DNA from: an uncultured Candidatus Saccharibacteria bacterium
Lineage (GTDB): Bacteria; Patescibacteriota; Doudnabacteria; UBA920
NCBI GenBank assembly: GCA_964532425.1
Contig: CAZHIA010000001.1
Coordinates: forward strand, 44,889 to 108,888
Direction: 5' to 3'
DNA length: 64,000 nt
Part shown: positions 2,531-59,277 of the stretch, piece after piece
Layout of the letters: every line of letters starts with the position of its first letter
Position numbering within the stretch: the stretch's first letter is position 1
The notes under the pieces: model-generated
Told to the model about the DNA's origin: nothing
The model's input: the letters and a program-made list of their open reading frames with translations, nothing else
The model's database searches: none
Program-made: the position numbers and the translations under genes

Positions 2531-2612
2531 TGTTGAACATTTGACCTTTGACATGTAACATGTGACCTAACTGCAGTCGGTCAATGGTCAAAGGTTACAT
2601 GTCAAATGTTAT
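2531..2612. promoter_or_regulatory. ~80-bp palindromic element with TTGACC/GGTCAA half-sites ending in TGTCAAATGTT; a homologous element lies at 56327-56402
   Basis: AACATTTGACCTTTGAC...GTCAATGGTCA...ATGTCAAATGTT. The 11-mer TGTCAAATGTT recurs at 56391 and 59241. The element sits about 30 bp upstream of the ABC transporter start. Confidence 0.5.
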
Positions 2613-2640
2613 ATTTAGAATTTACTATTCATTTACCATT

Positions 2641-3390
2641 ATGGACACAAATGCAGTTGAGGTTAATAATCTTCAAAAGGCGTACCGGACGGTCCAGGCG
2701 GTAAAAGGTATTTCTTTTACGGTCGCACCTGGCGAGATCTTCGCCCTCATTGGACCGAATGGCGCGGGAAAATCCACCACGTTGCGCATACTTGCCACGC
2801 TGCTGCAACCGACCGGCGGCAGTGCAAGTGTATACGGTTTGGATGTAGTCAAAGACGGAGCGCGGGTACGCGAGAATATCAGCTATTTGCCGGAAGAGGC
2901 GGGTGCATACAAGAATCTGACCGGGCGCGGTTATTTGGAATTCATGGCAGGCTTGTTTGCCGACGATGCCGCCAAACAACGCGAATTCGTGAAATTTGCC
3001 GAAGACATTTCCGGACTTGGGCAGCGCTTGCAGGATAAGATTAATACCTACAGTAAAGGTATGACCAGGAAACTGCTGCTGGCGCGAACGGTCATGAGCC
3101 GGCCGCGGCTGGCCATCCTGGACGAACCGACCAGCGGGCTCGACATTATCAATGCCATGGAGATTCGGAAGAATATCCAGGCTTTGAGCCGTGAAGGCAT
3201 GGCTGTACTGCTCTCATCGCACAATATGCTCGAGATAGAGTTCCTGGCGCATCGGGTGGCGATAATTTACCAAGGCACTATCCATGAAACAGGGTCGCCG
3301 CAGGATCTGAAGAACAAGTATCATGCTTCTAATCTGGAAGAAGTATTTCTGGCGATCGTTCAAAGCCAGCAAGGAAAGGCGGCTGTATGA
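2641..3390 (+). CDS. ABC transporter ATP-binding protein
   Basis: Walker A GPNGAGKST, signature-like YSKGMTRK, Walker B LAILDEPTSGLD. Start taken at ATG 2641 rather than the track's 2584. Confidence 0.85.
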   Translation: MDTNAVEVNNLQKAYRTVQAVKGISFTVAPGEIFALIGPNGAGKSTTLRILATLLQPTGGSASVYGLDVVKDGARVRENISYLPEEAGAYKNLTGRGYLEFMAGLFADDAAKQREFVKFAEDISGLGQRLQDKINTYSKGMTRKLLLARTVMSRPRLAILDEPTSGLDIINAMEIRKNIQALSREGMAVLLSSHNMLEIEFLAHRVAIIYQGTIHETGSPQDLKNKYHASNLEEVFLAIVQSQQGKAAV

Positions 3391-5002: not shown

Positions 5003-5611
5003 GAATTGAAAATGCCTCCTTCGGGTCGGTGTCGAAAGTGATAATACCGAAAAAACAGGAATAAGTCAATTCATATAGTAATCTCTAATATACGAATCAA
5101 GCACCAATCCGCCCTCTGGCGGAGGCGGACGAATGCAGCACACCGTCCTTTATTCCTTAGAACGGCCAATAGTTATTCGTATATTTGCGCTGTATTCGTT
5201 ATATTCGAGATTGCTAATAAAAATCCAGGACACCGCTGTGGTGTCCTGGATGGGAGTTCGTGCACGGCTATAGACAGCCGCGGAACGGGTCGAACCCGTA
5301 ACTGAAGAGTGGTGGGAATGGGGCGAATCGGTGGAACAGACGATCGAATTTAAGTTGAGTCCGGAAGGTCCGGTACTTGGTCTTAAACAGCCTGAAGGTC
5401 AGGCGCAGTCCACGTTGCTCGCCTTTCATACCGCGCTGGAACATGCGATCTCCTCCTACAGTTGGGATATATGGCAGTATATAACGGCTTTTTTCCAAAA
5501 GCAAGGGGTAATCAATAGAAAAATAAAAAGATAGAAAATAGAAAGATTGAGATTGCCATAATCTTTTGATCTTTTATTTTTCTATTTTTCTATTGTTTGC
5601 TATACTACAAA

Positions 5612-5733
5612 TACAACCTAAGCGTTATCGCGAGTCCGGCGAGAGCACTGGCTCTATGACCCGGCGGCAACCCTGAGTAGCCCGGCTATTCGATGGGTGC
5701 CCCATCCAGCCCATTAGTAATGGGAAAGATGAT
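5612..5733 (+). ncRNA. SAM-I (S-box) riboswitch
   Basis: TTATCgcGAG...GGCAACC...GGGTGCCCCATCCAGC...AAAGATGA matches the S-box consensus blocks. Lies directly upstream of metK. Confidence 0.75.
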
Positions 5734-5744
5734 TTGATTTTGCG

Positions 5745-5776
5745 CTCAAACCCTTTCCCGCGAAAGGTTTTTTGTT
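5745..5776 (+). terminator. riboswitch expression-platform terminator
   Basis: CCCTTTC-ccgc-GAAAGG followed by TTTTTTG, abutting the metK start. Confidence 0.6.
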
Positions 5777-5777
5777 T

Positions 5778-6812
5778 ATGTACCAGAGTAAGTTCTATAC
5801 GGCCGAGAATGTGGCCCTCGGGCATCCGGATAAGGTCTGTGATCAGATCTCGGACGCTATTTTAGATGAGATTCTCCGGCAGGATTCAAACGGCCGCGTG
5901 GCCATGGAAGCGTTCGGCAGCCACGGGCTTTTGGTTCTTGGTGGCGAGGTTACGGCTGAGGCTGAGGTTGATTATGAAGCTGTAGCCCGCCGGGTTTATA
6001 GCGATATCGGCTACCATGAGCCGCTGGAGGTGTTAGTTCATATTGCTTGCCAGTCGCCGGATATTGCCCGCGGCGTGGATACGGGCGGCGCTGGTGATCA
6101 GGGAATTATGTACGGCTATGCCACGGACGAGACGCCGGAATACTTGCCGACCGGCGTGGTGCTGGCCAGGCAACTGGCGCAAGGACTGGCGGAACTCGGC
6201 CGCAGCCAGCCGGGGATTGGGCCTGACGGTAAGACGCAAGTAACTATGGAGAACGGCATGGTGTGCCGCGTGCTGGTCAGTTGCCAGCACGGCGAAGGTA
6301 TGGAACTGTCCGAGCTGCGGCAGATGCTCGTCGAGCGAGTAATTGTTCCGGTCTGCGGCAGGTTGCAGGACGGGCAGATCCTGGTCAATCCGACGGGCCG
6401 GTTCGTGCAAGGAGGGTTTGCAGCGGATGCGGGCCTGACCGGCCGCAAAATTATGGTTGATACCTATGGCGGGCTGGCGCCCCATGGCGGCGGCGCATTC
6501 TCCGGCAAGGATCCTTCCAAGGTCGACCGCAGTGCCGCGTACCTGGCGCGCTTAGCCGCCAAACATATGGTATCTGCCGGGCTGGCGCACGAGTGCCTGG
6601 TGTCGGTGGCATATGCCATCGGCCAAGAGCAGCCGCTTATGGTTTCCGCGGTTTCGGAGAGCGGGCAGGATCTTTCGGCGGCAGTGAAGCGGCATTTCGA
6701 TTTCAGGCCGCTGGCAATTATTGAACGGTTAGGCTTGCGCCGGCCAATCTATCGACAAACTGCCTGCTTCGGCCATTTTGGCCGGCCGGGTTTGCCGTGG
6801 GAAGAGTTATAA
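5778..6812 (+). CDS. metK: S-adenosylmethionine synthetase
   Basis: GHPDKVCDQISDA and GGGAFSGKDPSKVDRSAAY motifs. Start taken at ATG 5778; the track calls TTG 5772. Confidence 0.9.
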   Translation: MYQSKFYTAENVALGHPDKVCDQISDAILDEILRQDSNGRVAMEAFGSHGLLVLGGEVTAEAEVDYEAVARRVYSDIGYHEPLEVLVHIACQSPDIARGVDTGGAGDQGIMYGYATDETPEYLPTGVVLARQLAQGLAELGRSQPGIGPDGKTQVTMENGMVCRVLVSCQHGEGMELSELRQMLVERVIVPVCGRLQDGQILVNPTGRFVQGGFAADAGLTGRKIMVDTYGGLAPHGGGAFSGKDPSKVDRSAAYLARLAAKHMVSAGLAHECLVSVAYAIGQEQPLMVSAVSESGQDLSAAVKRHFDFRPLAIIERLGLRRPIYRQTACFGHFGRPGLPWEEL

Positions 6813-7548: not shown

Positions 7549-8064
7549 ATGACAGAGACGGAATTTGAACGGCCCGGCACCGAGCTGCTGTATAACTCGA
7601 ACGAGACTTTAAAAACCCGTGAGTCCGGACCCATTCGTTTTTACTTTGTGTTTGATACGCCCGAGCAGAAGCAGGCTGCCCGCGAGTTCTTCAATAATTC
7701 TGACGTGTTCAATTACGCGCCGTTTGCCTATATCAAAAAAGACAGTCTGGCTATGGCCGACCCCATGCAGCCAGAACGCGGGCTTGTGATTGAGTGCTCG
7801 CAGGCGCCGGCCGGGAGGCAGGCACTGCAGGAGCAGTTCGAAAGTTTTTTGCGCGGCAAGGGATGGTCATTTGCAAGCCATCCCGTGCCGCTGGAGCGGC
7901 CGCCCTTGCAGCCTTTGAGTGAACCGATCATACCGGTGGTCGTGCCTGAGACAGAACTGACAGAATCAGCTGGCGTCACTCCGATTGATCAGCCCCGCAA
8001 GCGGCAACAGTCGGAAGAACCTGGCAAGCCAAAAACCCAACAACCCCCAGGAGTAGCCGCGTAA
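7549..8064 (+). CDS. hypothetical protein
   Basis: GAAGGAG RBS 8 nt upstream of ATG 7549; Pro-rich C-terminus. Confidence 0.5.
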   Translation: MTETEFERPGTELLYNSNETLKTRESGPIRFYFVFDTPEQKQAAREFFNNSDVFNYAPFAYIKKDSLAMADPMQPERGLVIECSQAPAGRQALQEQFESFLRGKGWSFASHPVPLERPPLQPLSEPIIPVVVPETELTESAGVTPIDQPRKRQQSEEPGKPKTQQPPGVAA

Positions 8065-8073
8065 CTGCAATTC

Positions 8074-8119
8074 AACCCTGGATTTGTCCTGCTGGACAAA
8101 TCCAGGGTTGTTTGGTATT
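8074..8119 (+). terminator. rho-independent terminator
   Basis: AACCCTGGATTTGTCC/GGACAAATCCAGGGTT perfect 16-bp stem followed by GTTTGGTATT. Confidence 0.6.
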
Positions 8120-8170
8120 CTGGGGTGACTTCGAGGCAGGCGTCAGTGTCTCAAGTGCTAAGGAGGCTGC

Positions 8171-8497
8171 ATGGAAAGAGAGTTAAAACCCGCGCATGAG
8201 GTGATCGTAGAGCTCATAGAGCAGCACTGCGCTAATATTCAGACGTTTGAAAGCGCTGCCGAAAAGCAGCGATCCGACCCTTTGCTTGACCATTTCCAGG
8301 ACATCACCCGGAATCAAAAGATCGGCGGTCTTGATGCCTTGCTGGAGGCGCTGACCAGAATGATCATCCCGCCGGACAAGCTGCCGGCAGTGGTGGAAGC
8401 ACTCAAGCGGCTGACCTACAGCCATTGCATCATCACCGATGCGATAGAAACGCTGGAACAGCGGCAGGCTGCATCGTCAGCGGTGGTGACGGCTTAG
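8171..8497 (+). CDS. hypothetical protein (108 aa)
   Basis: AGGAGG RBS upstream of ATG; no recognisable domain. Confidence 0.5.
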   Translation: MERELKPAHEVIVELIEQHCANIQTFESAAEKQRSDPLLDHFQDITRNQKIGGLDALLEALTRMIIPPDKLPAVVEALKRLTYSHCIITDAIETLEQRQAASSAVVTA

Positions 8498-9465
8498 ACT
8501 GTTACCGCACTCTCAACACAAGAGCTCTGATTGTAGTCCGCCGATTCATCGGCATTGATTCTACAGTAAACACAAGAGCCGCCCCGACTCGGAAGGTCGA
8601 GGGCGGCTTTTTTAGTTGGTTGTTTTTTGGCCTTGCGCGTCACGGCGACAACCTTTTTTGGCTGGTTCGGTTTTGGCTGGCCGATTGCATAAGCATAAGC
8701 CAGAACCACTTCGGGATAGCGGTGTGGGCTGCCGTAGTAGCGGGCCAGGGCTCCGCTTGGGTTCTGCTGCCACTTGAGCGTTTGTAAAAAGTTTGCGGCG
8801 CTAAGGTTTGCATCGTCAGCGGCGTAGAGGTTGGGGGCTCCGGAGCCTTTGGCCGAAACGCCGTAATGTTCGAGCGTGTAGGGGAGGAACTGGACCAGGC
8901 CGAGCGCACCTTCGCGCGAGCCGCGCAGGGAAAAGCAGTCAGTTTGGGCGTCCCGGCAATACGCTGCCAGGGCAGCAAAGTTCATGGCAGCCCACTTCCA
9001 TTGGCGATAGGTGCGGCTGACGGCGCGCTGGTAAAACAGCTTGTAAATTTCCCAGTCGCCGAAATTCTTGCCCAGGTCGGTTTCCACGCGCACTACGGCC
9101 GTGATTGATTCGGGCGGGACGCGGAAGCGCTGGAAGGCTGTGTCGAGAGTCTGGCGATTCTTTTCCAGATATTCCTTTCCGCGGGCTATGGATTCGGGGC
9201 ACTTAAGCCGGCGCAAGAATTCTGTCCAGGAGACGAACTCTTCCTTGGGTTTTACGAGCGGAAGCGTGAGTTCGGGACGGGCGAGTATGTCGCGCCGTTC
9301 GGTATCGCCGAATTTGCGCTTTTTAAGCTCTTGGTCCAGAAAAGCCAGACGCGGATTGGCCGTCGGAGCCTTCTGGACTGTCTTGTGTCCAACCCTCTTT
9401 TGCTTGGCTGTGCCCGATGGCGCAGCAGCCAGCATCAACGCAGTGGTGAACAAGGCTAAAAACAT
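8494..9465 (-). CDS. membrane-bound lytic murein transglycosylase (MltB-like)
   Basis: Signal peptide. LGLVQFLPYTLEHYG matches the MltB GxMQF(M/L)PxT motif. Lys-rich C-terminal tail. Confidence 0.7.
   Translation of the reverse strand: MFLALFTTALMLAAAPSGTAKQKRVGHKTVQKAPTANPRLAFLDQELKKRKFGDTERRDILARPELTLPLVKPKEEFVSWTEFLRRLKCPESIARGKEYLEKNRQTLDTAFQRFRVPPESITAVVRVETDLGKNFGDWEIYKLFYQRAVSRTYRQWKWAAMNFAALAAYCRDAQTDCFSLRGSREGALGLVQFLPYTLEHYGVSAKGSGAPNLYAADDANLSAANFLQTLKWQQNPSGALARYYGSPHRYPEVVLAYAYAIGQPKPNQPKKVVAVTRKAKKQPTKKAALDLPSRGGSCVYCRINADESADYNQSSCVESAVTV
8578..8614 (+). terminator. rho-independent terminator
   Basis: GCCGCCCCGAC...GTCGAGGGCGGC followed by TTTTTT; overlaps the 3' end of the convergent minus-strand gene. 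Confidence 0.65.
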
Positions 9466-9759
9466 AACCTGCCTCCTTGTATGAAGGCATTGTAGCAGAA
9501 AACGGCAATGGAGTGCAGGCCGCTGGCCTGCTGATAAATAAAAAGATTCAAAAATAGAAATATAAAAAATTATAAGAACTGTAGATTATGTAGGTAATAT
9601 CTACCCTACAATTTCTTGGATCTTTCTATTGGCAGGGCACGGCCCTGCACTACAAGAACAGGGGTGCATATGAATACCACTGTAGTACAGGCCCGTGGCC
9701 TGCTCCGTGTAGGGGCAGGCAGGAGGCGCCCTCTTCTTAAAGCACCAAAAACAAATCTC

Positions 9760-10052
9760 AAATTACAAATAATATCCAAATTTCAAATTCGAAATTCTGC
9801 AGATTGGATATTGAATATTGTCTCCCTCCAGGAGATCTACCGCAGGTACGAGGTATTAGGAAGTAGTCTCAAAACCTCCTTATGGCGTCATTCTGAGTCC
9901 TGAGTTCGACGAAGGACGAAGAATCTCATGATCGGTAAGAGATACTTCGGTCGTCTGACTCCCTCAGTATGACGCCGGAGAGGGAGTATCCTGGTTTTGA
10001 GACCGCTTCTAGAATAAATCTTAAAATTTGATGCTTGGGATTTGGAATTTGA
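9760..10052 (+). mobile_element. MITE-like element, copy 1 (~293 bp) with a long internal hairpin (GGCGTCATTCTGAGTCCTGAG...CTCAGTATGACGCC) and AT-rich CAAATTTCAAATTC-type termini
   Basis: About 95% identical to the reverse complement of 44737-45032; a partial core copy lies at 37694-37866. Confidence 0.8.
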
Positions 10053-10453
10053 ACGGCGGGCAGCTGCCGCTTGCCCCTACGGGGACCAGGTCTTTGCAGC
10101 GTAGGGGCCGCCGACCCTGCCTGCCGGCAGGCAGGAGGCGTCCTCTCGCACAAAGCCTAAATCCTAAATTTTAAATCCTTAATCCGTATTGATAGCCAGT
10201 CTCTTCAAAACCCGGTACAATGAGAGCAGGCTGTGACTTAATTTTTCTAGTTTCTATTTTTCTATTTATTATGTTGGCAATTATTTTCGGCCTTGTTGCT
10301 ATCGGAATATTCGTCCTGTTTCGGGAGGCGTTTTCGCATGCACCGACTTCGCCGCAGCGGCCAAAGCCGGCCGCTTCGGGTGATGCCCTCGTTCGCTTCG
10401 GCCTCGGGCAGCGCCGCAAGAGTCAGCGCCGATTGCATATAGAAAAGCCGGCC

Positions 10454-11755
10454 ATGGAGTTTAATCCCGAGAACAGCCGGGCTTTGGATTTGCTCGAGAA
10501 TTCCCGCCGCAATATTTTTCTGACCGGGCGGGCCGGGGCGGGTAAATCTACCTTGCTCATGTACTTTCGCGCTACTACCAAAAAGAACGTGGCTGTGGTC
10601 GCGCCGACCGGTGTGGCTGCCATTAACGTGCAGGGCCAGACCATTCATCGCTTCTTCCGCTTTAAGCCGGATATTACGCTCGACAAAGTGCCGAAGTATT
10701 TGGACCGCGACCGGGATCTCTATAAAGAATTAGACACACTGGTCATAGACGAGATCTCCATGGTGCGGGCTGATCTGCTCGATTGTGTGGATGCGTTCTT
10801 GCGTATGCACGGACCGGAACCGGGCAAGGTTTTCGGCGGCGTGCAAATGGTGTTCATGGGAGACTTATACCAATTGCCGCCCGTGGTCAAGGACGAGGAA
10901 GAGGAAATTTTCCAGACGCACTATCGCACGGAGTTTTTCTTTTCCGCCAAGTGCCTGCAGCAGACCACGCTCATTCCGCTGGAACTGACCCGCGTGTACC
11001 GCCAGAGCGATGAAGGCTTTAAGAAAATTTTAAACGACATCCGCGACGGTACAGTCAGTGACCAGGACTTGGCAGTTTTGAACTCCCGCGTTGACCGCGA
11101 TTTTTCGCCTGCACAGGAAGAGGGTATTGTCCGCGTATGGTTGGTACCGACGCGCGCCCAAGCCGCGGAAATTAATGGCTGGCACATGGAACATCTGCCT
11201 GGCGCCATGCGCATGTACCACGGTTCGGTAGAGGGTAGGTTTTCCGAGCGCGACATGCCAACACCGTTGGAATTGGAGTTGAAAGTCGGTACGCAGGTTA
11301 TGCTGCTCAATAACGACAGCAAGGGGCGCTGGGTTAACGGCGACGTGGCCCGGGTGGTAGATTTGCGCCAGGATTTTATCCGCGTCAAGTTCGACGACGG
11401 CACGTTCGATGATGTCGAACGCCATACCTGGGACGCGTTCCGTCATACGCTCGAAAAGGGGAGTAATAAGATTGTCGCGGTTTCCGACGGCAGTTTTACC
11501 CAGTTTCCGGTCAAGCCGGCTTGGGCGTTAACCATCCACAAGTCGCAAGGTAAGACGTATGATCATGTGGCCATCGATTTAAGCCGCGGTACTTTTGCGG
11601 CCGGCCAGGCTTATGTGGCCTTGTCGCGCTGCCGCACGCTTGAAGGTCTTATTTTAAAAACCCCGCTGCGCCGCCATCACGTTATGATAGACAAGGAAGC
11701 CGCGGAGTTCATGAAGGTGGTATCATTTTTAGCGGAGAAGGGACATATCCCCTAA
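10454..11755 (+). CDS. PIF1-family 5'-3' DNA helicase (paralog 1)
   Basis: Walker A GRAGAGKST and the C-terminal TIHKSQGKTYDHVAIDLSRGTFAAGQAYVALSRCRTLEGL motif. Start set at 10454 by alignment with paralog 2. The track's start at 10220 adds a doubtful TM segment that overlaps an AT-rich repeat. Confidence 0.8.
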   Translation: MEFNPENSRALDLLENSRRNIFLTGRAGAGKSTLLMYFRATTKKNVAVVAPTGVAAINVQGQTIHRFFRFKPDITLDKVPKYLDRDRDLYKELDTLVIDEISMVRADLLDCVDAFLRMHGPEPGKVFGGVQMVFMGDLYQLPPVVKDEEEEIFQTHYRTEFFFSAKCLQQTTLIPLELTRVYRQSDEGFKKILNDIRDGTVSDQDLAVLNSRVDRDFSPAQEEGIVRVWLVPTRAQAAEINGWHMEHLPGAMRMYHGSVEGRFSERDMPTPLELELKVGTQVMLLNNDSKGRWVNGDVARVVDLRQDFIRVKFDDGTFDDVERHTWDAFRHTLEKGSNKIVAVSDGSFTQFPVKPAWALTIHKSQGKTYDHVAIDLSRGTFAAGQAYVALSRCRTLEGLILKTPLRRHHVMIDKEAAEFMKVVSFLAEKGHIP

Positions 11756-11837
11756 ATCACCGCTGAAGGTGCGCTGATTACGACGCTGAAAGGTCGCTTA
11801 TGTAGGGGCGGCCATTGGCCGCCCTGTCCGTGATTCA

Positions 11838-11865
11838 GTAGGGGACGGTCGCGACCGTCCCGTAC
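11838..11865. repeat. REP-like palindrome (family E): GTAGGGGACGGTCGCGACCGTCCCGTAC. Related copies at 11797-11822, 11937-11965, 21590-21613, 22897-22924, 46565-46590, 50870-50899 and 51115-51144.
   Basis: Near-perfect palindrome with the GTAG head typical of RAYT-mobilised REPs; eight copies in the window. Confidence 0.8.
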
Positions 11866-11983
11866 GGGATTCAGATCATTTTATCCAAATAAGAGCGTAT
11901 CAGAGTTCATTTCACACTGAATGATTGCATATATAGAGGCGGCCAATGGCCGCCCTATCCGTGAACCAGGAACTATAATAACA

Positions 11984-13812: not shown

Positions 13813-13843
13813 CCTATCCATCCTATCCATCTTATTCATCCTA
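13813..13843. repeat. period-9 tandem array (CCTATCCAT x3-4) directly after the radC stop and upstream of the PIF1-2 start
   Basis: cctatccat cctatccat cttattcat cc... Confidence 0.8.
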
Positions 13844-13865
13844 GAGGCCTTATTCCCTTTATTCC

Positions 13866-15968
13866 ATGTCCGAAGACAATTCTCCTCTTTACACGAAATC
13901 CTATTACGAAGAAGTCCGTAAAATCCACCCCCGCATGGGCAAGAAGTGGACTGCGGACGAAGACCAACAGCTTAAGAATGCCTACCTGCAATTCAAGGCG
14001 CAGCCGTCGGCGAATTTTGACGTGTTCCTGCAGGAACTGGTCGAGCAGTTCGGCAGGGCTTCGGGCGGCATTAAGGCAAGGTTAGCTAAATATTTTGAGG
14101 ACGTCCCGGGTTGGGACTATGGCCGCGATGCGTTCCGGCAGGAACAGCTCAATAAGGAGGCAGAGTCAGCCATTCCCAAAGACGACGAGGAGGTGCTGGT
14201 TCGGGCGTACCGCTTGTATGAAGAATCAAAAAATGAGACGTACATGGCCTTTTTACGGCGCATGTCGGAACGCCTTGGAAATATTGAGGGGAGGCTTATA
14301 ACGCACCGTTTATCGCAATTGGTCGGCGAGGTAAAAAAGTACAATAAGGAAGATGTAGGGGCGGCCAGTGGCCGCCCGCACCCAGGGAGTGATCGCGAAA
14401 AAAATACTCCCGACGTCTCAGATATCGACTTTTCTGGCAACCTTGAAGCAGGCGAGGCCTTGCGCCTTATGGAGCAGACCCGGGAAAATCTGTTTTTGAC
14501 CGGAGAGGCTGGAACCGGGAAATCGACCCTGCTGCAGTTCTTCCGCTATACCACCCAAAAGAACGTGGTGGTGCTCGCTCCGACCGGGGTGGCTGCTTTG
14601 AATGTGGAAGGCCAGACCATTCATTCGTTTTGCGGGTTCGGTCCGGATATTACGGTGCACAAGGTCAAGAAGCTAGGCCCATGGGCGCCCAAGCGCAAGC
14701 TGCTTAATAAGCTCGATGCGATTATTATAGACGAGATCTCCATGGTCCGCGCTGATCTGCTTGATTGCGTGGACAAGTTTTTGCGCATGAACGGGCCGAC
14801 TGGGACGCAAGCCTTTGGTGGCATTCAAATGATTTTCATCGGTGATCTTTATCAACTCCCGCCAGTATCCGCCGAAAGGCCTGTTGGCCAATCAGGCGGA
14901 CCCGCCACAATGTCCCGTTTTGGCGGGGCTTTGGGCGGGGAGAAGGGTTTTTATGGTGATCCTCTCCTGTCCCAATACGCCTCTCCTTATTTTTTTGATG
15001 CCCTTGCATATAAGCAGACGAAGTTCCACCACATCGCCCTCAAGCAAATGTACCGGCAGAAGGACCGGGTGTTCATCGACGTGCTGAATGCGGTGCGCAA
15101 CAATGCAGCCATGCAGGAACATTTGACCGTCTTAAACCAGCGCGCGCAGACTGCGGGTGCCAAGTTCACGTTCGAGAAATTTGCAATTTATTTAACTACT
15201 ACGAACCAACGCGCGCGGCAAGTGAATAATTTTTTCATTGAGCGCTTGAAGGGAGAGCTGAAGACTTTTCAGGGGCGCACTGCCGGAACCTTTGAGGACC
15301 GAGAGCTGCCCACAGACTTGAATTTGCAAATCAAGGTCGGCGCCCAAGTCATGATGCTCAACAACGACCGCAAGAAGCGCTGGGTCAATGGCACTATGGG
15401 GAAGATAGTTGCCATAGGTTTTGGTAATACCGATGTTGAGCAGGCCCGCGGCCTGCCCTCCCGGATGGAGAATGGTAGTGTGGTTTCTTCTCCCCAGGCG
15501 TGGGAAGATGCCCCGCAGGGGCAGAGAGGTCGAACCCTGGAAGCTGAAGATCAATCTCCCGAACTCACCTACGAACCCATCTCTCCATATGACTACCGCC
15601 CGCAATCTTCTGGCATGGTGGTAACCGTGGAATTGGAAACAGGGGAGACCGTAGACGTGACGCCGTTCACCTGGGAGATGCACAAGTTCGTGCTCGACAA
15701 GGAAACGGAGAAAATAGACATTCAGACCACGGGCACGTTCACGCAATACCCGTTCAAGTTGGCTTGGGCCGTGACCATACACAAGGCCCAGGGCAAGACG
15801 TTCGACAAGGTGTATGTGGATCTTTCCACCGGCACCTTCGCGCACGGCCAGCTCTACGTTGCCCTCTCGCGCTGCCGCACTCTGGAAGGTCTCTTCCTCC
15901 GCCGTCCCATCACCCCCGCCGACATCCTCCTCGACCAGCGCATTGTCCAATTTCTGAATTCGTTATAA
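13866..15968 (+). CDS. PIF1-family DNA helicase (paralog 2) with an ~200-aa N-terminal extension containing a Myb/SANT-like motif, plus two internal insertions
   Basis: Core ~65% identical to paralog 1 (GEAGTGKST ... TIHKAQGKTFDKVYVDLSTGTFAHGQLYVALSRCRTLEGL). N-terminus has GKKWTADEDQQLKNAYLQF...GGIKARL. Confidence 0.8.
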   Translation: MSEDNSPLYTKSYYEEVRKIHPRMGKKWTADEDQQLKNAYLQFKAQPSANFDVFLQELVEQFGRASGGIKARLAKYFEDVPGWDYGRDAFRQEQLNKEAESAIPKDDEEVLVRAYRLYEESKNETYMAFLRRMSERLGNIEGRLITHRLSQLVGEVKKYNKEDVGAASGRPHPGSDREKNTPDVSDIDFSGNLEAGEALRLMEQTRENLFLTGEAGTGKSTLLQFFRYTTQKNVVVLAPTGVAALNVEGQTIHSFCGFGPDITVHKVKKLGPWAPKRKLLNKLDAIIIDEISMVRADLLDCVDKFLRMNGPTGTQAFGGIQMIFIGDLYQLPPVSAERPVGQSGGPATMSRFGGALGGEKGFYGDPLLSQYASPYFFDALAYKQTKFHHIALKQMYRQKDRVFIDVLNAVRNNAAMQEHLTVLNQRAQTAGAKFTFEKFAIYLTTTNQRARQVNNFFIERLKGELKTFQGRTAGTFEDRELPTDLNLQIKVGAQVMMLNNDRKKRWVNGTMGKIVAIGFGNTDVEQARGLPSRMENGSVVSSPQAWEDAPQGQRGRTLEAEDQSPELTYEPISPYDYRPQSSGMVVTVELETGETVDVTPFTWEMHKFVLDKETEKIDIQTTGTFTQYPFKLAWAVTIHKAQGKTFDKVYVDLSTGTFAHGQLYVALSRCRTLEGLFLRRPITPADILLDQRIVQFLNSL

Positions 15969-15970
15969 AT

Positions 15971-16033
15971 CCTATCCATCCTATTCATCCTATCCATCTT
16001 ATCAATCCTATCCATCTTATAAATCCCATTTCA
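15971..16033. repeat. period-9 tandem array (7 units: CCTATCCAT, CCTATTCAT ...) directly after the PIF1-2 stop
   Basis: Seven consecutive 9-bp units; this array is the source of the spurious NPIHPIHPIH ORF. Confidence 0.85.
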
Positions 16034-16180
16034 CCCCTTCTTCCCCTTGGCTTCCATTAACCCCCCTTTACCCCCTTAAACCCCTTTTCACCCTTTCTTC
16101 CCTCACTCTGTGTCATTCCGGAATCCGAGTGCAGCCGAGGATGTCCGGAATCCAGTTTATTTCCCCATAAATTCTCTTAT

Positions 16181-16883: not shown

Positions 16884-19718
16884 ATGAGAGTTAGTAAACT
16901 TAATAGGTGTTTATTAGTGTTGGGCTGCTTAGCTCTACTAGGCGGTCAAGTAAGAATAGCGGCGAATGCTACTAGTGCTATTGTAGTCTGTGACCCAGGC
17001 TATAATGCTGGTAACTCTCCTATACAAGGTATTCCTACATATGATTACGGAACGGACGGAATGGTCCGTTTTCATTTTACCTTGGATGGTAATGGCTGGG
17101 CTCCCTCAAATAATTTTGTGGCCGTGTATGGAGAGAATTGTGAGTACCTTTATACAAAAGGTTATACGTACGCAAGTTCAGGTAGTATTCCGCAAGGTGT
17201 AATTCATCTTATGGTGAAAGCGCAAGAAGTAACACCAGGAGGCGGGTGGTATGTGTTCACAGCTTATGACGAGGACACAAACGAACCGGTAGGACTGGGA
17301 GGTATGCCGACCCAAGTAAACGAGCCGTTTGTTAGCTTTGCAATTTTACAGAACCCTAGCTACTACGTGTACAACGGAGCCAAAAGCCCTGCTGTGCCAG
17401 TGAGAGATCCGACACGAATGATTTCTAAGACCCCGGTATTGATTGTGCCAGGGGTGATGGGTACTGAATTAAAGATGGAGGGTGAGTTACTTTGGGTTGA
17501 TCTAGATAGAATGTTGGGTGATGTTGGTGACCAGTTTATGGATAAGTTGCAATTTAAGGAAGATCTTCAACCCGAAAATGAGAGTGTGTCACCAGATCAA
17601 GTAATTGCGCAAAAACCGTTATTTGATTACACGGGCTCTTTGGCTGATGAATTTAAAACCCAAGGGTATACCGAAAATCAGGATCTCTTTACTTTCCCAT
17701 ATGACTGGCGTTACGGGGTAACTGGAGTCGTAGATACTACAACAGGTAAAACAACGGTCGACTTACTGCAGCAAAGAATTGAGGAAATTAGTCAGCAAAC
17801 AGGAAGTTCTCAGGTGGATGTAATCGCACATAGCACTGGTGGCTTATTGGTGAAAAAGTATGTTATGGATCACCCGGATTCTCATCGGATTCGTAAGGCT
17901 GTATTTGTAGGTGTGCCAAACGTCGGCGCTCCCAAAGCCATAAAAACTCTTTTGATGGGGGATGGGTTTGGTATCCCTTGGCTTGCCGACGGAGAAATGC
18001 TAAAACTGTCTCAAAATCTTCCGGTTGTTTATGACCTCATGCCTAGTGCTCAATATTACTCTGTTCATACTAGCCCTATAAACATCCTTTCGGGTAAGGT
18101 TTTTGTTTCCGAGATGAAAAATCTTTCTTATGATGAATCCATTTCTTATTTGACAGAAAAAGGATTGAACATTTCTGCAATAACACAATCGCAGTCATTG
18201 CATTCAAGATCGTTCGATAGTTATGACATGAGGACGGCAGGTGTGGATGTATATAATATTGTCGGGTGTAAATCAGGGACTGTGACGCAAGTGTTGGACT
18301 ACGAACATCAAGACGGATCCCATATTAGATATGACGTGTATGAAGAAGGGACAGGTGATGGAACAGTACCGCTCGAGAGTTCAACTTATTTGCCAGTAAA
18401 CGATGACCATAAATTTTATGCGTTAAAGACAGAGCATGCGAAAATGTTGAGCCAGGATGGTGTTCGCCAGACAATTGTTAATGTTGTGTCCGGAGCCAAT
18501 CTTGCAGTCAGTGATAAAGCTGTTACCTCAGACATTGGAAAGTGTAAGTTGAAGGGGAAGGCTGTGGCTATATATAGTCCAGTTGATATTCAAATTTCCG
18601 ACCAATTTGGTAATAAACTAGGACTCGCGGAGGATGGGAGTATACAAAACACAATTCCCGGTGCGGATTTTGAAATCATGGGTGAACACAAGTATGCATT
18701 TTTGCCCGATGAGGATGGTGAAGTATATTCTTTAAATTTAAAAGGTACCGGGACCGGGCTCTTTACCGTGAAAGTTGATGATATTGATGGTTCGGTGATA
18801 GGCTCAAAAATCTTTGCGAGTCTCACCGTTACCCCTTCGCTAGTGGGTACCTTGTCTTTAACTGGGGACACTAAGATGGATTTGGACACGAATAATGATG
18901 GTTCAGTGGACCAGGAACTAACACCTTCAACACTTTCAAACCCCTCCCAATCCCAAGACTATCTTCCTCCCATCTCCACCTCCACCCTTTCTGGCATTAT
19001 GGGACAGGCGGGGTTTTATAGGAGCGAGGTGGTGGTGGCGCTGAATGCGACGGATACGGTGGTGTCGGGACTTGAGGATCAGACTTCCGGTGTTTTGGAC
19101 GTGCGCTATGCGCTGGACGACCATTCATCCAATCCATCCTATTCTTCCTATGCCAGCCCTATCACTGTTTCCACCGAAGGTCCTCACACCCTCTCGTTCT
19201 ATTCCGTGGACCGGGCGGGGAATAGGGAAGCGGTGCAGACGATTAATTTTACCATCGACAAAACCGCGCCAGAGGTTTCTTTGCAGTTTGACCAGAATGC
19301 AAAGGATCTGGTTTTCAGCGGCATCGACAATTCTCCGGTCTCGGTCAGCGACAAGGACGACATTATTACCGTAACCGATCAGGCCGGCAATGCCACAGTT
19401 ATGAAGCTCAAAGACAAGAACCGCAAGCGCTCGCTGAAGGCTGAAATTAAATCCATTAGCTACAACGGGCAGGTTGCGGATCTTTCTAAGAACAGCATGG
19501 CGTTCTCCTGGGCCTATGACAGAAAGGACAAAGACAAGCTTGTCTTGCTTTCGCAAATCGTGACTGCGAAAAAAGACTACCTCGTCTCAGCCATCTACAA
19601 TGGCAAGTCTACGGTGCTGCTTGGCCGTGACGCTTCGGGCAAAATAAAGAAAACTCTCCCCGGCCTGACTCTCCTCAAAATTGCCACCTCCACCGGCGAC
19701 TTGAATTGGAGTTATTAG
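16884..19718 (+). CDS. secreted LCAT/PGAP1-like alpha/beta hydrolase, fused through an S/T/P linker to a chitobiase-C-like Ig domain and a C-terminal region
   Basis: Signal peptide. PVLIVPGVMGTELK is LCAT-like. Nucleophile elbow VIAHSTGGL. A YYSVDRAGNRE-type beta-sandwich motif. The 5' 2 kb is AT-rich and the 3' 0.8 kb is GC-rich. Confidence 0.65.
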   Translation: MRVSKLNRCLLVLGCLALLGGQVRIAANATSAIVVCDPGYNAGNSPIQGIPTYDYGTDGMVRFHFTLDGNGWAPSNNFVAVYGENCEYLYTKGYTYASSGSIPQGVIHLMVKAQEVTPGGGWYVFTAYDEDTNEPVGLGGMPTQVNEPFVSFAILQNPSYYVYNGAKSPAVPVRDPTRMISKTPVLIVPGVMGTELKMEGELLWVDLDRMLGDVGDQFMDKLQFKEDLQPENESVSPDQVIAQKPLFDYTGSLADEFKTQGYTENQDLFTFPYDWRYGVTGVVDTTTGKTTVDLLQQRIEEISQQTGSSQVDVIAHSTGGLLVKKYVMDHPDSHRIRKAVFVGVPNVGAPKAIKTLLMGDGFGIPWLADGEMLKLSQNLPVVYDLMPSAQYYSVHTSPINILSGKVFVSEMKNLSYDESISYLTEKGLNISAITQSQSLHSRSFDSYDMRTAGVDVYNIVGCKSGTVTQVLDYEHQDGSHIRYDVYEEGTGDGTVPLESSTYLPVNDDHKFYALKTEHAKMLSQDGVRQTIVNVVSGANLAVSDKAVTSDIGKCKLKGKAVAIYSPVDIQISDQFGNKLGLAEDGSIQNTIPGADFEIMGEHKYAFLPDEDGEVYSLNLKGTGTGLFTVKVDDIDGSVIGSKIFASLTVTPSLVGTLSLTGDTKMDLDTNNDGSVDQELTPSTLSNPSQSQDYLPPISTSTLSGIMGQAGFYRSEVVVALNATDTVVSGLEDQTSGVLDVRYALDDHSSNPSYSSYASPITVSTEGPHTLSFYSVDRAGNREAVQTINFTIDKTAPEVSLQFDQNAKDLVFSGIDNSPVSVSDKDDIITVTDQAGNATVMKLKDKNRKRSLKAEIKSISYNGQVADLSKNSMAFSWAYDRKDKDKLVLLSQIVTAKKDYLVSAIYNGKSTVLLGRDASGKIKKTLPGLTLLKIATSTGDLNWSY

Positions 19719-19727
19719 TCTTATACG

Positions 19728-19772
19728 TCCTATTTGTCCTATTAGACCTATCTGCCCTATAGGTCCTATTCA
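19728..19772. repeat. period-9 tandem array (5 units, GTCCTATTn-like) directly after the hydrolase stop
   Basis: tcctatttg tcctattag acctatctg ccctatagg tcctattca. Confidence 0.75.
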
Positions 19773-27507: not shown

Positions 27508-27516
27508 GCAAGGTTT

Positions 27517-37682: not shown

Positions 37683-37693
37683 GGAGTAGTTTT

Positions 37694-37866
37694 AAAATCT
37701 CCTTGTGGCGTCATTCTGAGTCCTGAGCCTGCCAACTCCTCGAGTCTGAGCGATCTCGGAATCGAAGACCAACAGGCAGGTTCGAAGAAGGACGAAGAAT
37801 CCCATTATCGGTAATAGATGCTTCGGTCATCTGATTCCCTCAGCATGACGCCGGAGAACAGATATT
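37694..37866 (+). mobile_element. partial (core hairpin) copy of the MITE-like element, carrying a 53-bp internal insertion
   Basis: GGCGTCATTCTGAGTCCTGAG...CTCAGCATGACGCC, homologous to the cores at 9885-9978 and 44800-44905. Confidence 0.7.
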
Positions 37867-37897
37867 TTTGTTACGAAACTATCTCTAGGCTTATTGT

Positions 37898-38829: not shown

Positions 38830-38939
38830 AAAAATAAAAAGATAGAAAAATAGAAAGATGGAAATTAGAAAGATTTAAAATGATGGATTCCGGATGGCAC
38901 TTCGCTCCGCTTCGTTGCCTCCGGAACGACACAGAGAAC

Positions 38940-55311: not shown

Positions 55312-55642
55312 ATAATATCCTTGATGGAAATCTTCCTGAGGTATGCGCTCAGCGTTATATCCGCGTAGAAATCCGCGATAGATCAGCGGTTAGATCTATC
55401 GGTATTTTGGTCGCTTGCGAAATTAAAGTGGGTTGTGGATAATAAGTATTCTTGCGAGTTTTCGGGCACTTGACAGGTTTTTGAAAGCGGTTTAATATGT
55501 GTATGTAATACACTAATTGGACGTCAGACAGCGTAGGTTGTCATTGCGAGTGAAGCCGAAGCAATCTTCTGATGGGGGAAAGATTGCTTCGGCTAAAAGA
55601 TAAAGCCCTTTTAGGCTCGCAATGACAAGGAGAAGAGAAGAC

Positions 55643-56317: not shown

Positions 56318-56326
56318 AGCTTGAAA

Positions 56327-56402
56327 AAACATTTAACCTTTAACAATTGACCTTTGACCGGTTCGATTAAGTTAAATGTCAATGGTCATATGTCAAATGT
56401 TG
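56327..56402. promoter_or_regulatory. second copy of the TTGACC/GGTCAA palindromic element ending in TGTCAAATGTT
   Basis: AACATTTAACCTTTAACAATTGACCTTTGACC...AAATGTCAATGGTCATATGTCAAATGTT; homologous to 2531-2612. Confidence 0.5.
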
Positions 56403-56771
56403 GCCCCCTATATTTTTTTCTTCTTAATTAGTGTAAAAAATACACCATATGTAAACTATCCATTGGGTATGTCATTGCGAGGAGTACAATCGATCGAAGA
56501 TCCGCCATATCCGTCTTGGCGGAGGAGGCGGACAAAGCAATCTTTATTTTTTACTCTTTGTTCATGGGTAGGAAAGATTGCCACGCTCGGATGCACCTGC
56601 CTACCGGCAGGTAGGCTCGCTCGCAATGACAGATAAGTCGCAGGTTTTGCCAGGGAGCCTTTGGGCCACTGCTTGATGTCGCGTTGGGCAGCGGTATCCA
56701 TGGGCTCCCCGGCAAGCCCTGCCTCAAAAGCAGAGCCTGAAGCAGTACCTTGTTTGGCATAAGGAGGAACT

Positions 56772-59178: not shown

Positions 59179-59277
59179 ATTTTCCTCCTGAAATCGTAAT
59201 GAAAATGTTGACCACATACTATACATTAATATGTTAATTTTGTCAAATGTTTCAACGTTTTTATAATAATTAATCTC

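What the first reader, a model, noticed from the sequence alone, without database searches (positions are those of the whole stretch)
2531..2612. Recurrent ~80-bp TTGACC/GGTCAA palindromic element ending in the 11-mer TGTCAAATGTT
Homologous elements lie at 2531-2612 and 56327-56402: AACATTTGACCTTTGAC ... GTCAATGGTCA ... ATGTCAAATGTT. The first overlaps the promoter of the ABC exporter. The second sits immediately after the NrtR-like regulator.

The exact 11-mer TGTCAAATGTT occurs a third time at 59241. There it overlaps a -35 element, and a GTTGAC half-site lies nearby in the divergent promoter region of the phosphatase-kinase operon.

Three exact 11-mers in 64 kb is far above chance. The inverted TTGAC half-sites suggest an operator for a dimeric regulator; the adjacent NrtR-like protein is one candidate. 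It could also be another mobile hairpin family.
Basis: seen in the sequence. Interest (0 to 1): 0.5.

Follow-up and report, generated by a model that had tools for sequence, protein, structure and literature searches.

The report
Dispersed inverted heptad-repeat element, not operator
The two ~75-bp "palindromes" are copies of a widespread family of small intergenic repeats found mainly in Patescibacteria, each built from about four 7-bp units (ATTTRAC) facing four inverted units; one copy is a recent insertion next to the NrtR gene, and it is not that regulator's binding site.

Summary
E1 (2536-2610) and E2 (56328-56401) exist, and the 11-mer TGTCAAATGTT occurs three times against 0.06 expected. 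Each element has 4 contiguous heptads (consensus ATTTRAC), a 12-13 nt loop, and 4 inverted heptads.

NrtR does not use them. Its operator is a separate 21-bp palindrome with a GT-N7-AC core, at 55496-55516 and 56428-56448, and it is conserved in four relatives. In all four relatives the downstream box follows the nrtR stop codon after about 15 nt, so E2 sits in a ~91-nt lineage-specific insertion.

A metagenome scan found 83 loci with the same architecture (chance about 2 or fewer). Named genomes with these elements are mostly Patescibacteria. The elements fill tight gaps at gene 3' ends, are never inside long ORFs, and are always in convergent orientation. Their arms do not co-evolve for pairing, so the conserved feature is the heptad, not the hairpin.

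The third 11-mer (59241) is the -35 region of a strong promoter-like site and is probably coincidental.

The closest described kind is the intergenic heptamer repeats of Xanthomonas and Nostoc. The best reading is an insertion-prone, REP/MITE-like repeat family recognised through its heptads. The factor that recognises them is unknown.

The parts
2536..2566 (.). E1 left arm: AAC + 4 contiguous heptads ATTTGAC CTTTGAC ATGTAAC ATGTGAC
   Evidence: TRAC every 7 nt from 2542 to 2566
2567..2579 (.). E1 loop/spacer CTAACTGCAGTCG (13 nt)
2580..2610 (.). E1 right arm: inverted heptads GTCAATG GTCAAAG GTTACAT GTCAAAT + GTT. It contains the ATG at 2584 that gene callers use as the ABC ATPase start; the more likely start is the ATG at 2641.
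56319..56409 (.). Block of about 91 nt (agcttgaaaa + E2 + ggccccc) present in the window but absent between the nrtR stop codon and the NrtR box in four relatives: a lineage-specific insertion
   Evidence: L122, L123, L207, L209 compared with the window
56328..56358 (.). E2 left arm: AAC + ATTTAAC CTTTAAC AATTGAC CTTTGAC
56359..56370 (.). E2 loop/spacer CGGTTCGATTAA (12 nt)
56371..56401 (.). E2 right arm: GTTAAAT GTCAATG GTCATAT GTCAAAT + GTT
59241..59251 (-). Third exact 11-mer. It is not an array. On the minus strand it supplies the TTGACA -35 (59246-59241) of a TTGACA-17-TATAGT promoter-like site for the gene starting at 59178. It is listed only because the finding names it.
55496..55516 (.). 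Context, not part of the element: candidate NrtR box TATGTGTATGTAATACACTAA, just after the -10 of the nrtR promoter (TTGACA 55470, TAATAT 55493)
56428..56448 (.). Context, not part of the element: second candidate NrtR box TTAGTGTAAAAAATACACCAT, downstream of nrtR and separated from the stop codon by the E2 insertion

Best explanation
E1 and E2 are two members of a dispersed family of small intergenic repeats. Each is built from two head-to-head arrays of about four contiguous 7-bp units: 5'-(ATTTRAC)n, a variable spacer of 1-56 nt, then (GTYAAAT)n-3'. The family is common in Patescibacteria (CPR)-type genomes, to which this window most likely belongs.

Shown:
- The elements enter genomes as insertions. 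E2 is a ~91-nt gain immediately after the nrtR stop codon.
- They settle in the short gaps at gene 3' ends.
- The left arm carries TGA/TAA in all three frames, and in about 40% of cases it supplies the stop codon of the upstream ORF.
- They persist at the same gap in genomes whose flanking proteins are only 59-81% identical, while their own sequence turns over.

Inferred:
- The heptad, not base pairing between the arms, is the unit that is recognised.
- It is most likely read on duplex DNA by an unidentified sequence-specific protein that binds several contiguous heptads. This could be a mobilising enzyme that treats the arrays as terminal inverted repeats, as in MITE/REP-like elements, or a cooperative binder like the omega protein.

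The elements are not the NrtR operator, and there is no evidence that they regulate the neighbouring ABC or NAD genes. The third 11-mer at 59241 is a promoter -35 region that resembles one and a half consensus heptads by chance.
For: Anatomy and specificity: TRAC at 7-nt period, found only at E1 and E2 in the window.

Family:
- 83 metagenome loci matched a 26-base pattern expected about 2 times or fewer by chance (expectation is my calculation).
- Positions not forced by the pattern still show A-T-T-T-R-A-C in units 3-4 on the left and 2-4 on the right, decaying to background at unit 5.
- The mode is 4 units per arm and the loop is 1-56 nt.
- Named MAGs with such hairpins are mostly Staskawicz-, Curtiss-, Peri-, Sacchari- and Parcubacteria.
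- The window's own proteins have best named hits in Patescibacteria.

Insertion: four relatives have TAA + 14-15 A/T nt + NrtR box, while the window has the same box and A/T tract plus the extra block containing E2.

Location:
- 0 of 76 hairpins lie inside long ORFs.
- Flanking-gene orientations are ++27, --22, +-9, -+2.
- Median distances to flanking ORFs are 4-10 nt.
- 31 of 77 adjacent long ORFs stop inside arm units 1-3.
- Neighbouring genes are diverse housekeeping genes.

Orientation rule: among arrays not forced by my patterns there are 13 convergent pairs and 0 divergent.

Motif rather than pairing:
- Identity between arms at variable positions is 0.736 against a null of 0.721.
- Real elements fold no better than chimeras with arms from other elements: mean z +0.1, Wilcoxon p 0.15.
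- There is no transcript-oriented asymmetry of the kind G-U pairing would give.

Positional persistence and turnover: L173/L180/L202 and L110/L195.

Mobility of heptad-ended elements in this same genome: a ~330-nt element whose ends are heptad arrays is present in two copies 97% identical. In L184 TTRAC arrays flank a PF05635 gene.

Same architecture described elsewhere: Xanthomonas and Nostoc heptamer repeats (PMC4692102).
Against: - No mobilising enzyme, target-site duplication or near-identical copies of this family were found.
- E1 and E2 are only 71% identical, no closer than to foreign elements, so there is no sign of recent transposition.
- Occupancy of the same gap across 59-81% protein identity, and solo arrays that replace equal-length loops inside a tsaD gene, fit selection for the motif (a host function) at least as well as selfish spread.
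- The heptad core is partly defined by my own detector and search patterns. Only the unforced-position analysis is free of that circularity.
- Hairpins will still form in RNA or single-stranded DNA whatever the selection, so an RNA-level effect is not excluded.
- Gene boundaries come from crude ORF calls.
Confidence: 0.5

Rival explanations
1. Host-functional protein-binding arrays. A conserved Patescibacteria DNA-binding protein polymerises on at least 4 contiguous heptads, as omega2/ParB of pSM19035 does on WATCACW heptads. The arrays would then act as architectural, insulator, roadblock or segregation sites, not as selfish DNA.
For: - The heptad consensus is kept while the arms do not co-evolve.
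- The typical 4 units per arm matches the minimum of 4 contiguous heptads needed by omega/ParB-pSM (PMC9499535).
- The same gaps are occupied in diverged genomes.
- Solo arrays sit inside tsaD and murC-like ORFs without any length change, and one is partly shared by L122 and L123.
- The orientation rule is strict.
Against: - No candidate protein was found, and no ribbon-helix-helix or ParA/ParB gene is linked to the elements.
- E2 is absent in four close relatives, so its site is dispensable.
- Other heptad families with different units coexist in the same genome, which would require several proteins.
- The spacer between the arms varies from 1 to 56 nt.
Confidence: 0.2
2. RNA-level element. 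The repeats are co-transcribed between genes and act as intercistronic or 3' stem-loops, serving as an mRNA stabiliser, a processing site or a weak bidirectional terminator, as REP/BIME elements do in enterobacteria.
For: - The location is between co-directional and convergent genes, rarely divergent ones, tight against stop codons and just before the next gene's Shine-Dalgarno sequence.
- E1 folds well as a single strand, z -3.9.
Against: - The arms do not covary, and native arms pair no better than foreign ones.
- E2 folds poorly, z -1.45, and is less stable than its chimeras.
- The R/Y asymmetry goes against G-U-tolerant pairing.
- There is no G+C stem or T-run and no terminator-like match.
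- No Rfam family matches.
- A hairpin-only model does not predict the 13:0 orientation rule.
Confidence: 0.15
3. Neutral simple-sequence product. Heptamer arrays arise in place by polymerase slippage and template switching and persist where they are harmless, with no factor recognising them.
For: - Heptamers are the over-represented long simple-sequence-repeat class in many bacteria, and slippage has been proposed as the cause (PMC4692102).
- Unit number differs between orthologous copies.
- E1 and E2 differ by one heptad.
Against: - Adjacent units are no more alike than units three apart, 0.616 against 0.651.
- The same heterogeneous consensus recurs across many lineages.
- The exclusively convergent orientation is not predicted.
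- E2 arrived as a complete 8-unit block.
Confidence: 0.1
4. Local operator for a dimeric transcription factor, with NrtR as the suggested candidate, controlling the ABC exporter, the genes after nrtR and the phosphatase-kinase operon.
For: - Inverted TTGAC/GTCAA half-sites are present.
- E2 is next to nrtR.
- The 11-mer recurs in a promoter region.
Against: - A separate, conserved 21-bp GT-N7-AC palindrome accounts for NrtR.
- E2 is absent in four relatives.
- The family neighbours more than 100 unrelated gene clusters.
- It lies at gene 3' ends and is depleted from divergent promoter regions.
- 8 units and a variable spacer do not fit a dimer site.
Confidence: 0.03

Closest known systems
Intergenic heptameric repeats of Xanthomonas (GGGAATC) and Nostoc (GGGGAYT); cyanobacterial short tandemly repeated heptanucleotides (Rehm et al. 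2015, PMC4692102)
   Same: - 7-nt unit with some conserved and some free positions.
- Most arrays have about 4 units.
- Many occur as two arrays in convergent orientation close together.
- 89-93% are intergenic, close to the 3' end of the upstream ORF, mostly between co-directional genes, with few between divergent genes and few inside genes.
- Arrays lie at the same gaps in related species but with length and sequence variation (against here).
   Different: - The unit here is A+T-rich ATTTRAC with no G-quadruplex potential.
- The hosts are Patescibacteria-like.
- Spacing to both flanking genes is much tighter.
- An insertion event is documented here.
- The function of the Xanthomonas and Nostoc repeats is itself unknown.
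REP/BIME elements with RAYT transposases, and bacterial MITEs (general knowledge, not tested against a curated definition)
   Same: - Short palindromic, multi-copy, extragenic repeats.
- Found between co-directional or convergent genes.
- Presence/absence differences occur between relatives.
- Positions are conserved while sequences turn over.
- A classical GTAG-REP/RAYT pair is present in this same window.
   Different: - E1/E2 have no GTAG head.
- Their arms are arrays of heptads, not a co-evolving stem.
- No target duplication, cognate transposase or near-identical copies were found.
Omega2 (ParB-pSM) heptad operators and parS of plasmid pSM19035 (PMC9499535)
   Same: Contiguous 7-bp units without gaps, in direct and inverted orientation. 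At least 4 contiguous units are needed for function there, and 4 is the modal number here.
   Different: - The heptad sequence differs (WATCACW, from my own knowledge).
- Those sites are plasmid-borne promoter/centromere sites next to the omega gene.
- Here there are tens of chromosomal copies at gene 3' ends and no linked ribbon-helix-helix gene. This is an analogy of mechanism only.
NrtR operator (Rodionov et al. 2008, PMC2330246)
   Same: E2 lies next to an nrtR gene and has inverted symmetry.
   Different: NrtR sites are 21-bp palindromes with core GT-N7-AC. Such sites exist separately at 55496-55516 and 56428-56448 and are conserved in relatives. E2 is 74 nt, made of heptads, and absent from the relatives.
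CtsR box of Firmicutes, (A/G)GTCAAA-NAN-(A/G)GTCAAA (recalled from my own knowledge, not checked here)
   Same: The heptad GGTCAAA/TGTCAAA is nearly the same word as the right-arm unit.
   Different: CtsR repeats are spaced 10 bp apart, occur as one direct pair, and lie upstream of clp or chaperone genes. Here the units are contiguous (7 bp), number 4+4 inverted, and sit next to unrelated genes.

Membership tests
NrtR operator | 21-bp palindrome with conserved core GT-N7-AC (PMC2330246) | tested here: not met
   E1 and E2 are 75- and 74-nt heptad arrays. The GTGTA-N5-TACAC palindromes are separate sites at 55499-55513 and 56431-56445.
NrtR operator | Site conserved at the same place in relatives that carry the regulator | tested here: not met
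   E2 is absent in L122, L123, L207 and L209, whereas boxes lie at both positions in all four (the downstream box in L207 deviates).
Intergenic heptameric repeats in convergent pairs (Xanthomonas/Nostoc type) | Tandem 7-nt units with conserved core positions and heterogeneous other positions | tested here: met
   Consensus A-T-T-T-R-A-C at positions not forced by the pattern. Unit spectrum.
Intergenic heptameric repeats in convergent pairs (Xanthomonas/Nostoc type) | Arrays mostly of about 4 units, often as two arrays in convergent orientation | tested here: met
   Mode of 4 units per arm. 13 convergent and 0 divergent pairs among non-seed arrays.
Intergenic heptameric repeats in convergent pairs (Xanthomonas/Nostoc type) | Intergenic, near the 3' end of the upstream ORF, mainly between co-directional genes | tested here: met
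   0 of 76 in long ORFs. Orientations ++27, --22, +-9, -+2. ORF stops lie within or just before the arm.
Intergenic heptameric repeats in convergent pairs (Xanthomonas/Nostoc type) | G-rich unit able to form G-quadruplexes | tested here: not met
   The unit ATTTRAC has at most one G.
MITE | Terminal inverted repeats | tested here: met
   The inverted heptad arrays form both ends.
MITE | Target-site duplication flanking the element | tested here: inconclusive
   No direct repeat flanks E1 (CTGTTG / ATATTT) or E2 (TGAAAA / GGCCCC). The relatives are too diverged to fix the insertion borders to the base.
MITE | Presence/absence polymorphism at orthologous sites | tested here: met
   E2 compared with four relatives. 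The L195-only copy compared with L110.
MITE | Multiple near-identical copies and a related autonomous element encoding a transposase | tested here: not met
   E1 and E2 are 71% identical. The only cargo versions seen carry a PF05635 gene or no ORF. There were no hits in viral contigs.
REP/RAYT | Conserved GTAG-type head next to a co-evolving palindrome, with a Y1 (RAYT) transposase in the genome | tested here: not met
   A RAYT (PF01797; HVH and SFYDH motifs) and GTAG-REPs are in the window. E1/E2 lack GTAG, and their arms do not co-evolve.
Omega/ParB-pSM-type heptad operator or centromere | At least 4 contiguous 7-bp units in direct and inverted orientation | tested here: met
   4 + 4 units. 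The requirement is taken from PMC9499535.
Omega/ParB-pSM-type heptad operator or centromere | Cognate ribbon-helix-helix protein that binds the heptads | not testable with these tools
   No linked ribbon-helix-helix or ParA gene appeared among the annotated window ORFs. Binding cannot be tested here.
Intrinsic terminator | G+C-rich stem followed by a T-run | tested here: not met
   0 terminator-like sites at E1 and none at E2. Family flanks show no T-run.
TIGR array (TIGR-Tas) | Alternating 8-12-nt repeats with 9-nt spacers, about 36-nt units repeated 5-15 times, next to a Nop-domain Tas gene (PMC12045711) | tested here: not met
   The units here are contiguous 7-mers without spacers, and there is no Nop-domain neighbour.
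Any Rfam family | Match at the gathering score | tested here: not met
   Only the SAM riboswitch at 5622-5735 passes. E1 and E2 give only far-sub-threshold miRNA-precursor hits.

The most novel reading that the evidence does not exclude
The ATTTRAC heptad arrays are chromosome-wide binding sites for a conserved, still unidentified Patescibacteria DNA-binding protein. That protein would coat at least 4 contiguous heptads, like omega, and use head-to-head arrays between genes (and occasionally inside genes such as tsaD) as architectural, insulating or segregation sites. Because analogous heptamer pairs exist in Xanthomonas and Nostoc, this would be one example of a general, undescribed class of heptad-reading systems.
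Probability: 0.15. Interest if true: 0.75.

Novelty: new member of a known kind. Interest (0 to 1): 0.4.

Why it matters
- It removes a false regulatory lead. The real candidate NrtR operators in this lineage are the 21-bp boxes, not the palindrome.
- It corrects a likely start-codon error. The ABC ATPase gene is called from an ATG inside the repeat.
- It documents that compact Patescibacteria genomes carry an abundant, phylum-spanning repeat family. I found no report of this family in two of the four literature searches, those aimed at Patescibacteria/CPR repeats.
- The family shares its odd architecture (about 4 heptads facing about 4 inverted heptads at gene 3' ends) with unexplained repeats of Xanthomonas and Nostoc.
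- The heptad is conserved and arm pairing is not. That makes the long-open question of what intergenic heptamer repeats are for directly testable, by looking for a heptad-binding protein.
- The elements also confound gene callers, because they offer stop and start codons in all frames.

Tried and rejected
1. NrtR operator: rejected.
2. Rfam families: none match.
3. Canonical terminator: none.
4. TIGR-Tas array, which surfaced in a literature search because it occurs in CPR: the unit structure is different.
5. Integron attC. The A-type heptads ATTTAAC/GTTAAAT fit RYYYAAC/GTTRRRY (my own recollection), but half the units are GAC/GTC, the units are contiguous, and the contexts are housekeeping operons. 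Not pursued further.
6. CtsR box: the spacing is wrong (my own knowledge).
7. Promoter cluster. The -35-like TTGACA words in both arms point inward and no -10 follows at 17 nt. Only a 9/12 match, GTTACA-16-TAGAAT at 2594-2621.
8. Recent slippage: adjacent units are no more alike than distant ones.
9. Hairpin selection: three tests were negative.
10. Search for a linked protein. Neighbour clustering gave 102 clusters among 134 ORFs with none dominant. Pfam on about 45 window ORFs found no transposase linked to the arrays, only a RAYT that belongs to the GTAG-REPs.
11. Strain variants lacking E1 or E2. Exact-protein look-ups returned only identical contigs.
12. Orthologous site of E1. Gene order is not conserved in the nearest ABC-permease relatives (at most 58% identity), so this was uninformative.
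The window's own genome was not recovered.
14. Viral contigs: 0 hits.
15. A generic strict lag-7 periodicity scan misses these heterogeneous arrays and was not informative.

Full report
OBSERVATION

Both elements are present as described: E1 at 2536-2610 and E2 at 56328-56401. The exact 11-mer TGTCAAATGTT occurs at 2600, 56391 and 59241. That is 3 matches against 0.06 expected, and no shuffle out of 100 reached 3. With one mismatch allowed there are 5 matches against 1.3 expected.

TGAC or TAAC recurs every 7 nt.
- E1: ATTTGAC CTTTGAC ATGTAAC ATGTGAC, a 13-nt spacer, then GTCAATG GTCAAAG GTTACAT GTCAAAT.
- E2: ATTTAAC CTTTAAC AATTGAC CTTTGAC, a 12-nt spacer, then GTTAAAT GTCAATG GTCATAT GTCAAAT.

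A detector for 'TRAC every 7 nt, at least 3 units' finds only these four arms in the 64 kb. The shared 11-mer is simply one and a half consensus units at the outer end of the right arm. E1 and E2 are 53/75 identical, no closer than either is to elements from unrelated metagenomes.

CONTEXT AND ORGANISM

E1 lies between a P-type ATPase (672-2522) and an ABC-2 transporter operon. E2 lies directly after a Nudix/winged-helix NrtR gene. The window is identical to three Logan contigs. The closest named homologues of NrtR and of the ABC permease are from Patescibacteria, so the organism is most likely a member of that group. This is an inference from best hits.

NrtR IS ACCOUNTED FOR BY ANOTHER SITE

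GTGTA-N5-TACAC occurs exactly twice in the window. One copy, at 55499-55513, lies just after the -10 of a TTGACA-17-TAATAT promoter in front of nrtR. The other, at 56431-56445, lies downstream of nrtR. Extended, both are 21-bp palindromes with a GT-N7-AC core, which is the published hallmark of NrtR sites (PMC2330246).

Four relatives with 75-78% identical NrtR have boxes at the same two relative positions. L122 and L123 match the pattern exactly, and the sequences were read directly in all four; the downstream box in L207 deviates. In all four the nrtR stop codon is followed by 14-15 A/T-rich nucleotides and then the box. The window has the same A/T tract and box, but about 91 nt (agcttgaaaa + E2 + ggccccc, 56319-56409) lie between the stop codon and them. 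E2 is therefore a lineage-specific insertion and not the operator.

THE FAMILY

A loose scan of the genome collection forced only one heptad per side. It gave about the number of hits expected by chance, but many hits were heptad-array palindromes, mostly in Patescibacteria MAGs.

A stricter scan of the metagenome collection specified 26 bases. By my calculation chance predicts about 2 hits or fewer even for A+T-rich DNA. It gave 83 loci. In these loci:
- Positions I did not force still show the consensus A-T-T-T-R-A-C for two more units on the left and three more on the right, decaying to background at the fifth unit.
- The mode is 4 units per arm.
- The spacer between the arms ranges from 1 to 56 nt.

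An Acidobacteria-type flavour with AACATTT/ATCATTT units also turned up. No copy was found in 2.9 million viral contigs, and no Rfam family matches.

WHERE THEY SIT

- None of 76 hairpins lies inside a long ORF.
- Flanking genes are co-directional in 49 cases, convergent in 9 and divergent in 2.
- Median distances to the flanking ORFs are 4-10 nt, so the element essentially is the intergenic gap.
- 31 of 77 long ORFs that end beside an element use a TGA or TAA inside arm units 1-3. This is possible because a 7-nt period presents TRA in all three frames.
- The right arm likewise offers ATG in all frames. This is why the ABC ATPase was called from 2584, inside E1. Relatives are 242-245 aa, which points to the ATG at 2641.
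- Neighbouring genes are diverse housekeeping genes: L27, SerRS, FtsQ, EF-Ts, Hsp20 and GalU.
- The same gap is occupied in contigs whose flanking proteins are only 59-81% identical, while unit composition, unit number and spacer differ. One gap is occupied in L195 but not in L110.

WHAT IS CONSERVED

Three tests show that arm-to-arm pairing is not under selection beyond what the shared motif gives.
- Identity between arms at the variable heptad positions is 0.736, against 0.721 for arms taken from different elements.
- Native elements are no more stable than chimeras: mean z +0.1, 37% more stable, p 0.15.
- Oriented by transcription, the R/Y composition differs slightly in the direction opposite to what G-U-tolerant RNA pairing would favour.

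E1 happens to fold well and E2 poorly. Adjacent units are no more alike than units three apart, so recent slippage is not the source.

Among arrays not forced by my patterns there are 13 convergent pairs and no divergent pair. Note that a convergent palindrome maps onto itself on inversion. Common descent of a copied element, or directional recognition, therefore explains the rule. Independent origin in place does not.

MECHANISM

Shown:
- The elements are gained as whole blocks.
- They sit where they do not disrupt genes.
- They keep a heptad consensus.

Inferred: the heptad is read by a protein on duplex DNA. Two facts make a mobilising enzyme that treats the arrays as terminal repeats the most economical reading.
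- This same genome holds a ~330-nt element whose ends are heptad arrays of another unit, in two copies 97% identical.
- In L184 TTRAC arrays flank a 23S-rRNA-intervening-sequence-protein gene.

Against this reading:
- No enzyme, target duplication or young copies of the TTRAC family were found.
- The positional persistence fits a host function just as well.
- So do the solo arrays that replace equal-length loops in a tsaD gene, one of which is partly shared by two genomes.

The omega2/ParB system of pSM19035 needs at least 4 contiguous heptads (PMC9499535). It is a mechanistic analogy, not a membership claim.

THE THIRD 11-MER

At 59241 there is no array. On the minus strand the 11-mer contains TTGACA, followed by 17 nt and TATAGT (11/12). 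This lies upstream of a Shine-Dalgarno sequence and the ATG at 59178. Two further 11/12 sites serve the plus strand.

The window has 27 TTGACA words. By my estimate, the chance that one of the 23 outside E1/E2 carries AACAT in front is a few percent. A decayed single-unit remnant cannot be excluded, because a TTGACC lies 29 nt away in convergent orientation. A coincidence with the -35 consensus is the simpler reading.

COMPARISON WITH WHAT IS KNOWN

The closest description is of the intergenic heptamers of Xanthomonas and Nostoc. They have heterogeneous units with a conserved core, mostly four units, and 70-75 convergent pairs per genome. They are 89-93% intergenic and close to the upstream ORF's 3' end, mostly between co-directional genes, with 7-8% between divergent genes (PMC4692102). 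The architecture and distribution are the same. The unit, the host and the G-quadruplex potential are not.

The elements are not REPs. A genuine GTAG-REP/RAYT pair is present separately in the window. They are also not TIGR arrays, terminators or NrtR sites. Two of my four literature searches were aimed at repeats in Patescibacteria/CPR, and neither found a report of this family.

VERDICT

The operator interpretation is rejected, and the 'mobile hairpin family' alternative is partly right. The finding is a new member, in a new phylum and with a new unit, of a known but unexplained kind of repeat. Interest is moderate. The local biology is ordinary. The family-level result, that the motif is conserved and the pairing is not, gives a concrete handle on an old open question.

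Noticed in passing
window 55496-55516 and 56428-56448; L122 9965/10692, L123 9759/10689, L207, L209: Candidate NrtR operators: 21-bp palindromes TTAGTGTA-N5-TACACTAA with a GT-N7-AC core. One overlaps the nrtR promoter and one lies just downstream of nrtR (upstream of pnuC in L122 and L207). They are conserved in five genomes.
   Followed up: yes
window 55541-55627; also 49921-49970 and 53707-53756: A second palindromic repeat family (GTCATTGCGAG ... CTCGCAATGAC). One copy is inserted in the nrtR 5' leader and is absent from L122, L207 and L209. L123 carries a different palindrome (TTTATCACAGAATATC...) at the same spot.
   Followed up: partly
window 50585-51118, with repeats at 50867-50902, 51112-51147, 11835-11870, 46557-46592: An IS200-like Y1 transposase of RAYT type (HVH and SFYDH motifs; PF01797, 27.8 bits). 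A GTAG-headed REP (GTAGGGGACGGTCGCGACCGTCCCGTACAG) lies in frame inside the gene and another lies just after it. Further GTAG-REP families are at 11800, 11931, 14353, 567-633, 10094-10160 and 45362-45428.
   Followed up: partly
window ~9746-10120 and 44738-45038 (inverted, 97% over 209 nt); partial copy at 37678-37888: A ~330-nt MITE-like element. Its two ends are heptad arrays of another unit (CAAATNA/AATTTCA ... TGAAATT), and its core holds a long GGCGTCATTCTGAG...CTCAGTATGACGCC stem. The two nearly identical copies imply recent copying.
   Followed up: partly
window 52908-53001; also 47062-47173 and 39913-39943: Inverted arrays of the heptad AATTTCA/TGAAATT exactly fill the gap between the DUF2207 gene (stop at 52906) and the YgjP-like gene (ATG at 53002). 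Another copy follows a PD-(D/E)XK (PF13366) gene at 46546-47067.
   Followed up: no
window 5510-5598 and 5622-5735; also 38819-38880, 9536-9578, 10234-10270: Inverted arrays of an 8-nt unit (ATAGAAAA / TTTTCTAT) sit immediately upstream of a SAM riboswitch (RF00162, 55.5 bits) that precedes metK (5772-6812).
   Followed up: no
window 13813-13852, 15962-16037, 19120-19159, 19720-19770: One-directional arrays of a 9-nt unit (CCTATCCAT) lie after genes, including after each of two paralogous PIF1-like helicase genes (10220-11755 and 13866-15968; about 70-85% similar segments).
   Followed up: no
L123 8049-8080, 8610-8634, 8790-8828 (tsaD gene 7899-9038, minus strand); L095 5317-5341 (murC-like ORF): Solo TTRAC arrays lie inside essential genes, always with GTYAAAT on the coding strand, and encode peptides such as LNVKGQMSNV. 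In tsaD they replace variable loops with little or no length change relative to L122. One is partly present in L122 too. This is unexplained.
   Followed up: partly
L184 545-1006: Five TTRAC heptads and four inverted heptads flank a 130-aa gene of the 23S rRNA intervening-sequence protein family (PF05635, E 1e-28). The outer array also supplies the start codon and leader of a pilin-like ORF (MSNVKCQSGFTLLELL).
   Followed up: partly
window 2584-3390: The ABC ATPase ORF is called from an ATG inside E1 (268 aa). Relatives are 242-245 aa, so the start is probably the ATG at 2641, which has no Shine-Dalgarno sequence in front.
   Followed up: partly
window 24562-32520: A defence-like cluster: an SNF2-family helicase, an N6/N4 DNA methylase and a type III restriction res-subunit helicase. 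NERD, DUF2726 and RadC-like genes are nearby.
   Followed up: no
window 56640-56722: A further hairpin between the downstream NrtR box and the SPFH/Band-7 gene (56772). It gives only sub-threshold miRNA-precursor-like Rfam hits.
   Followed up: no
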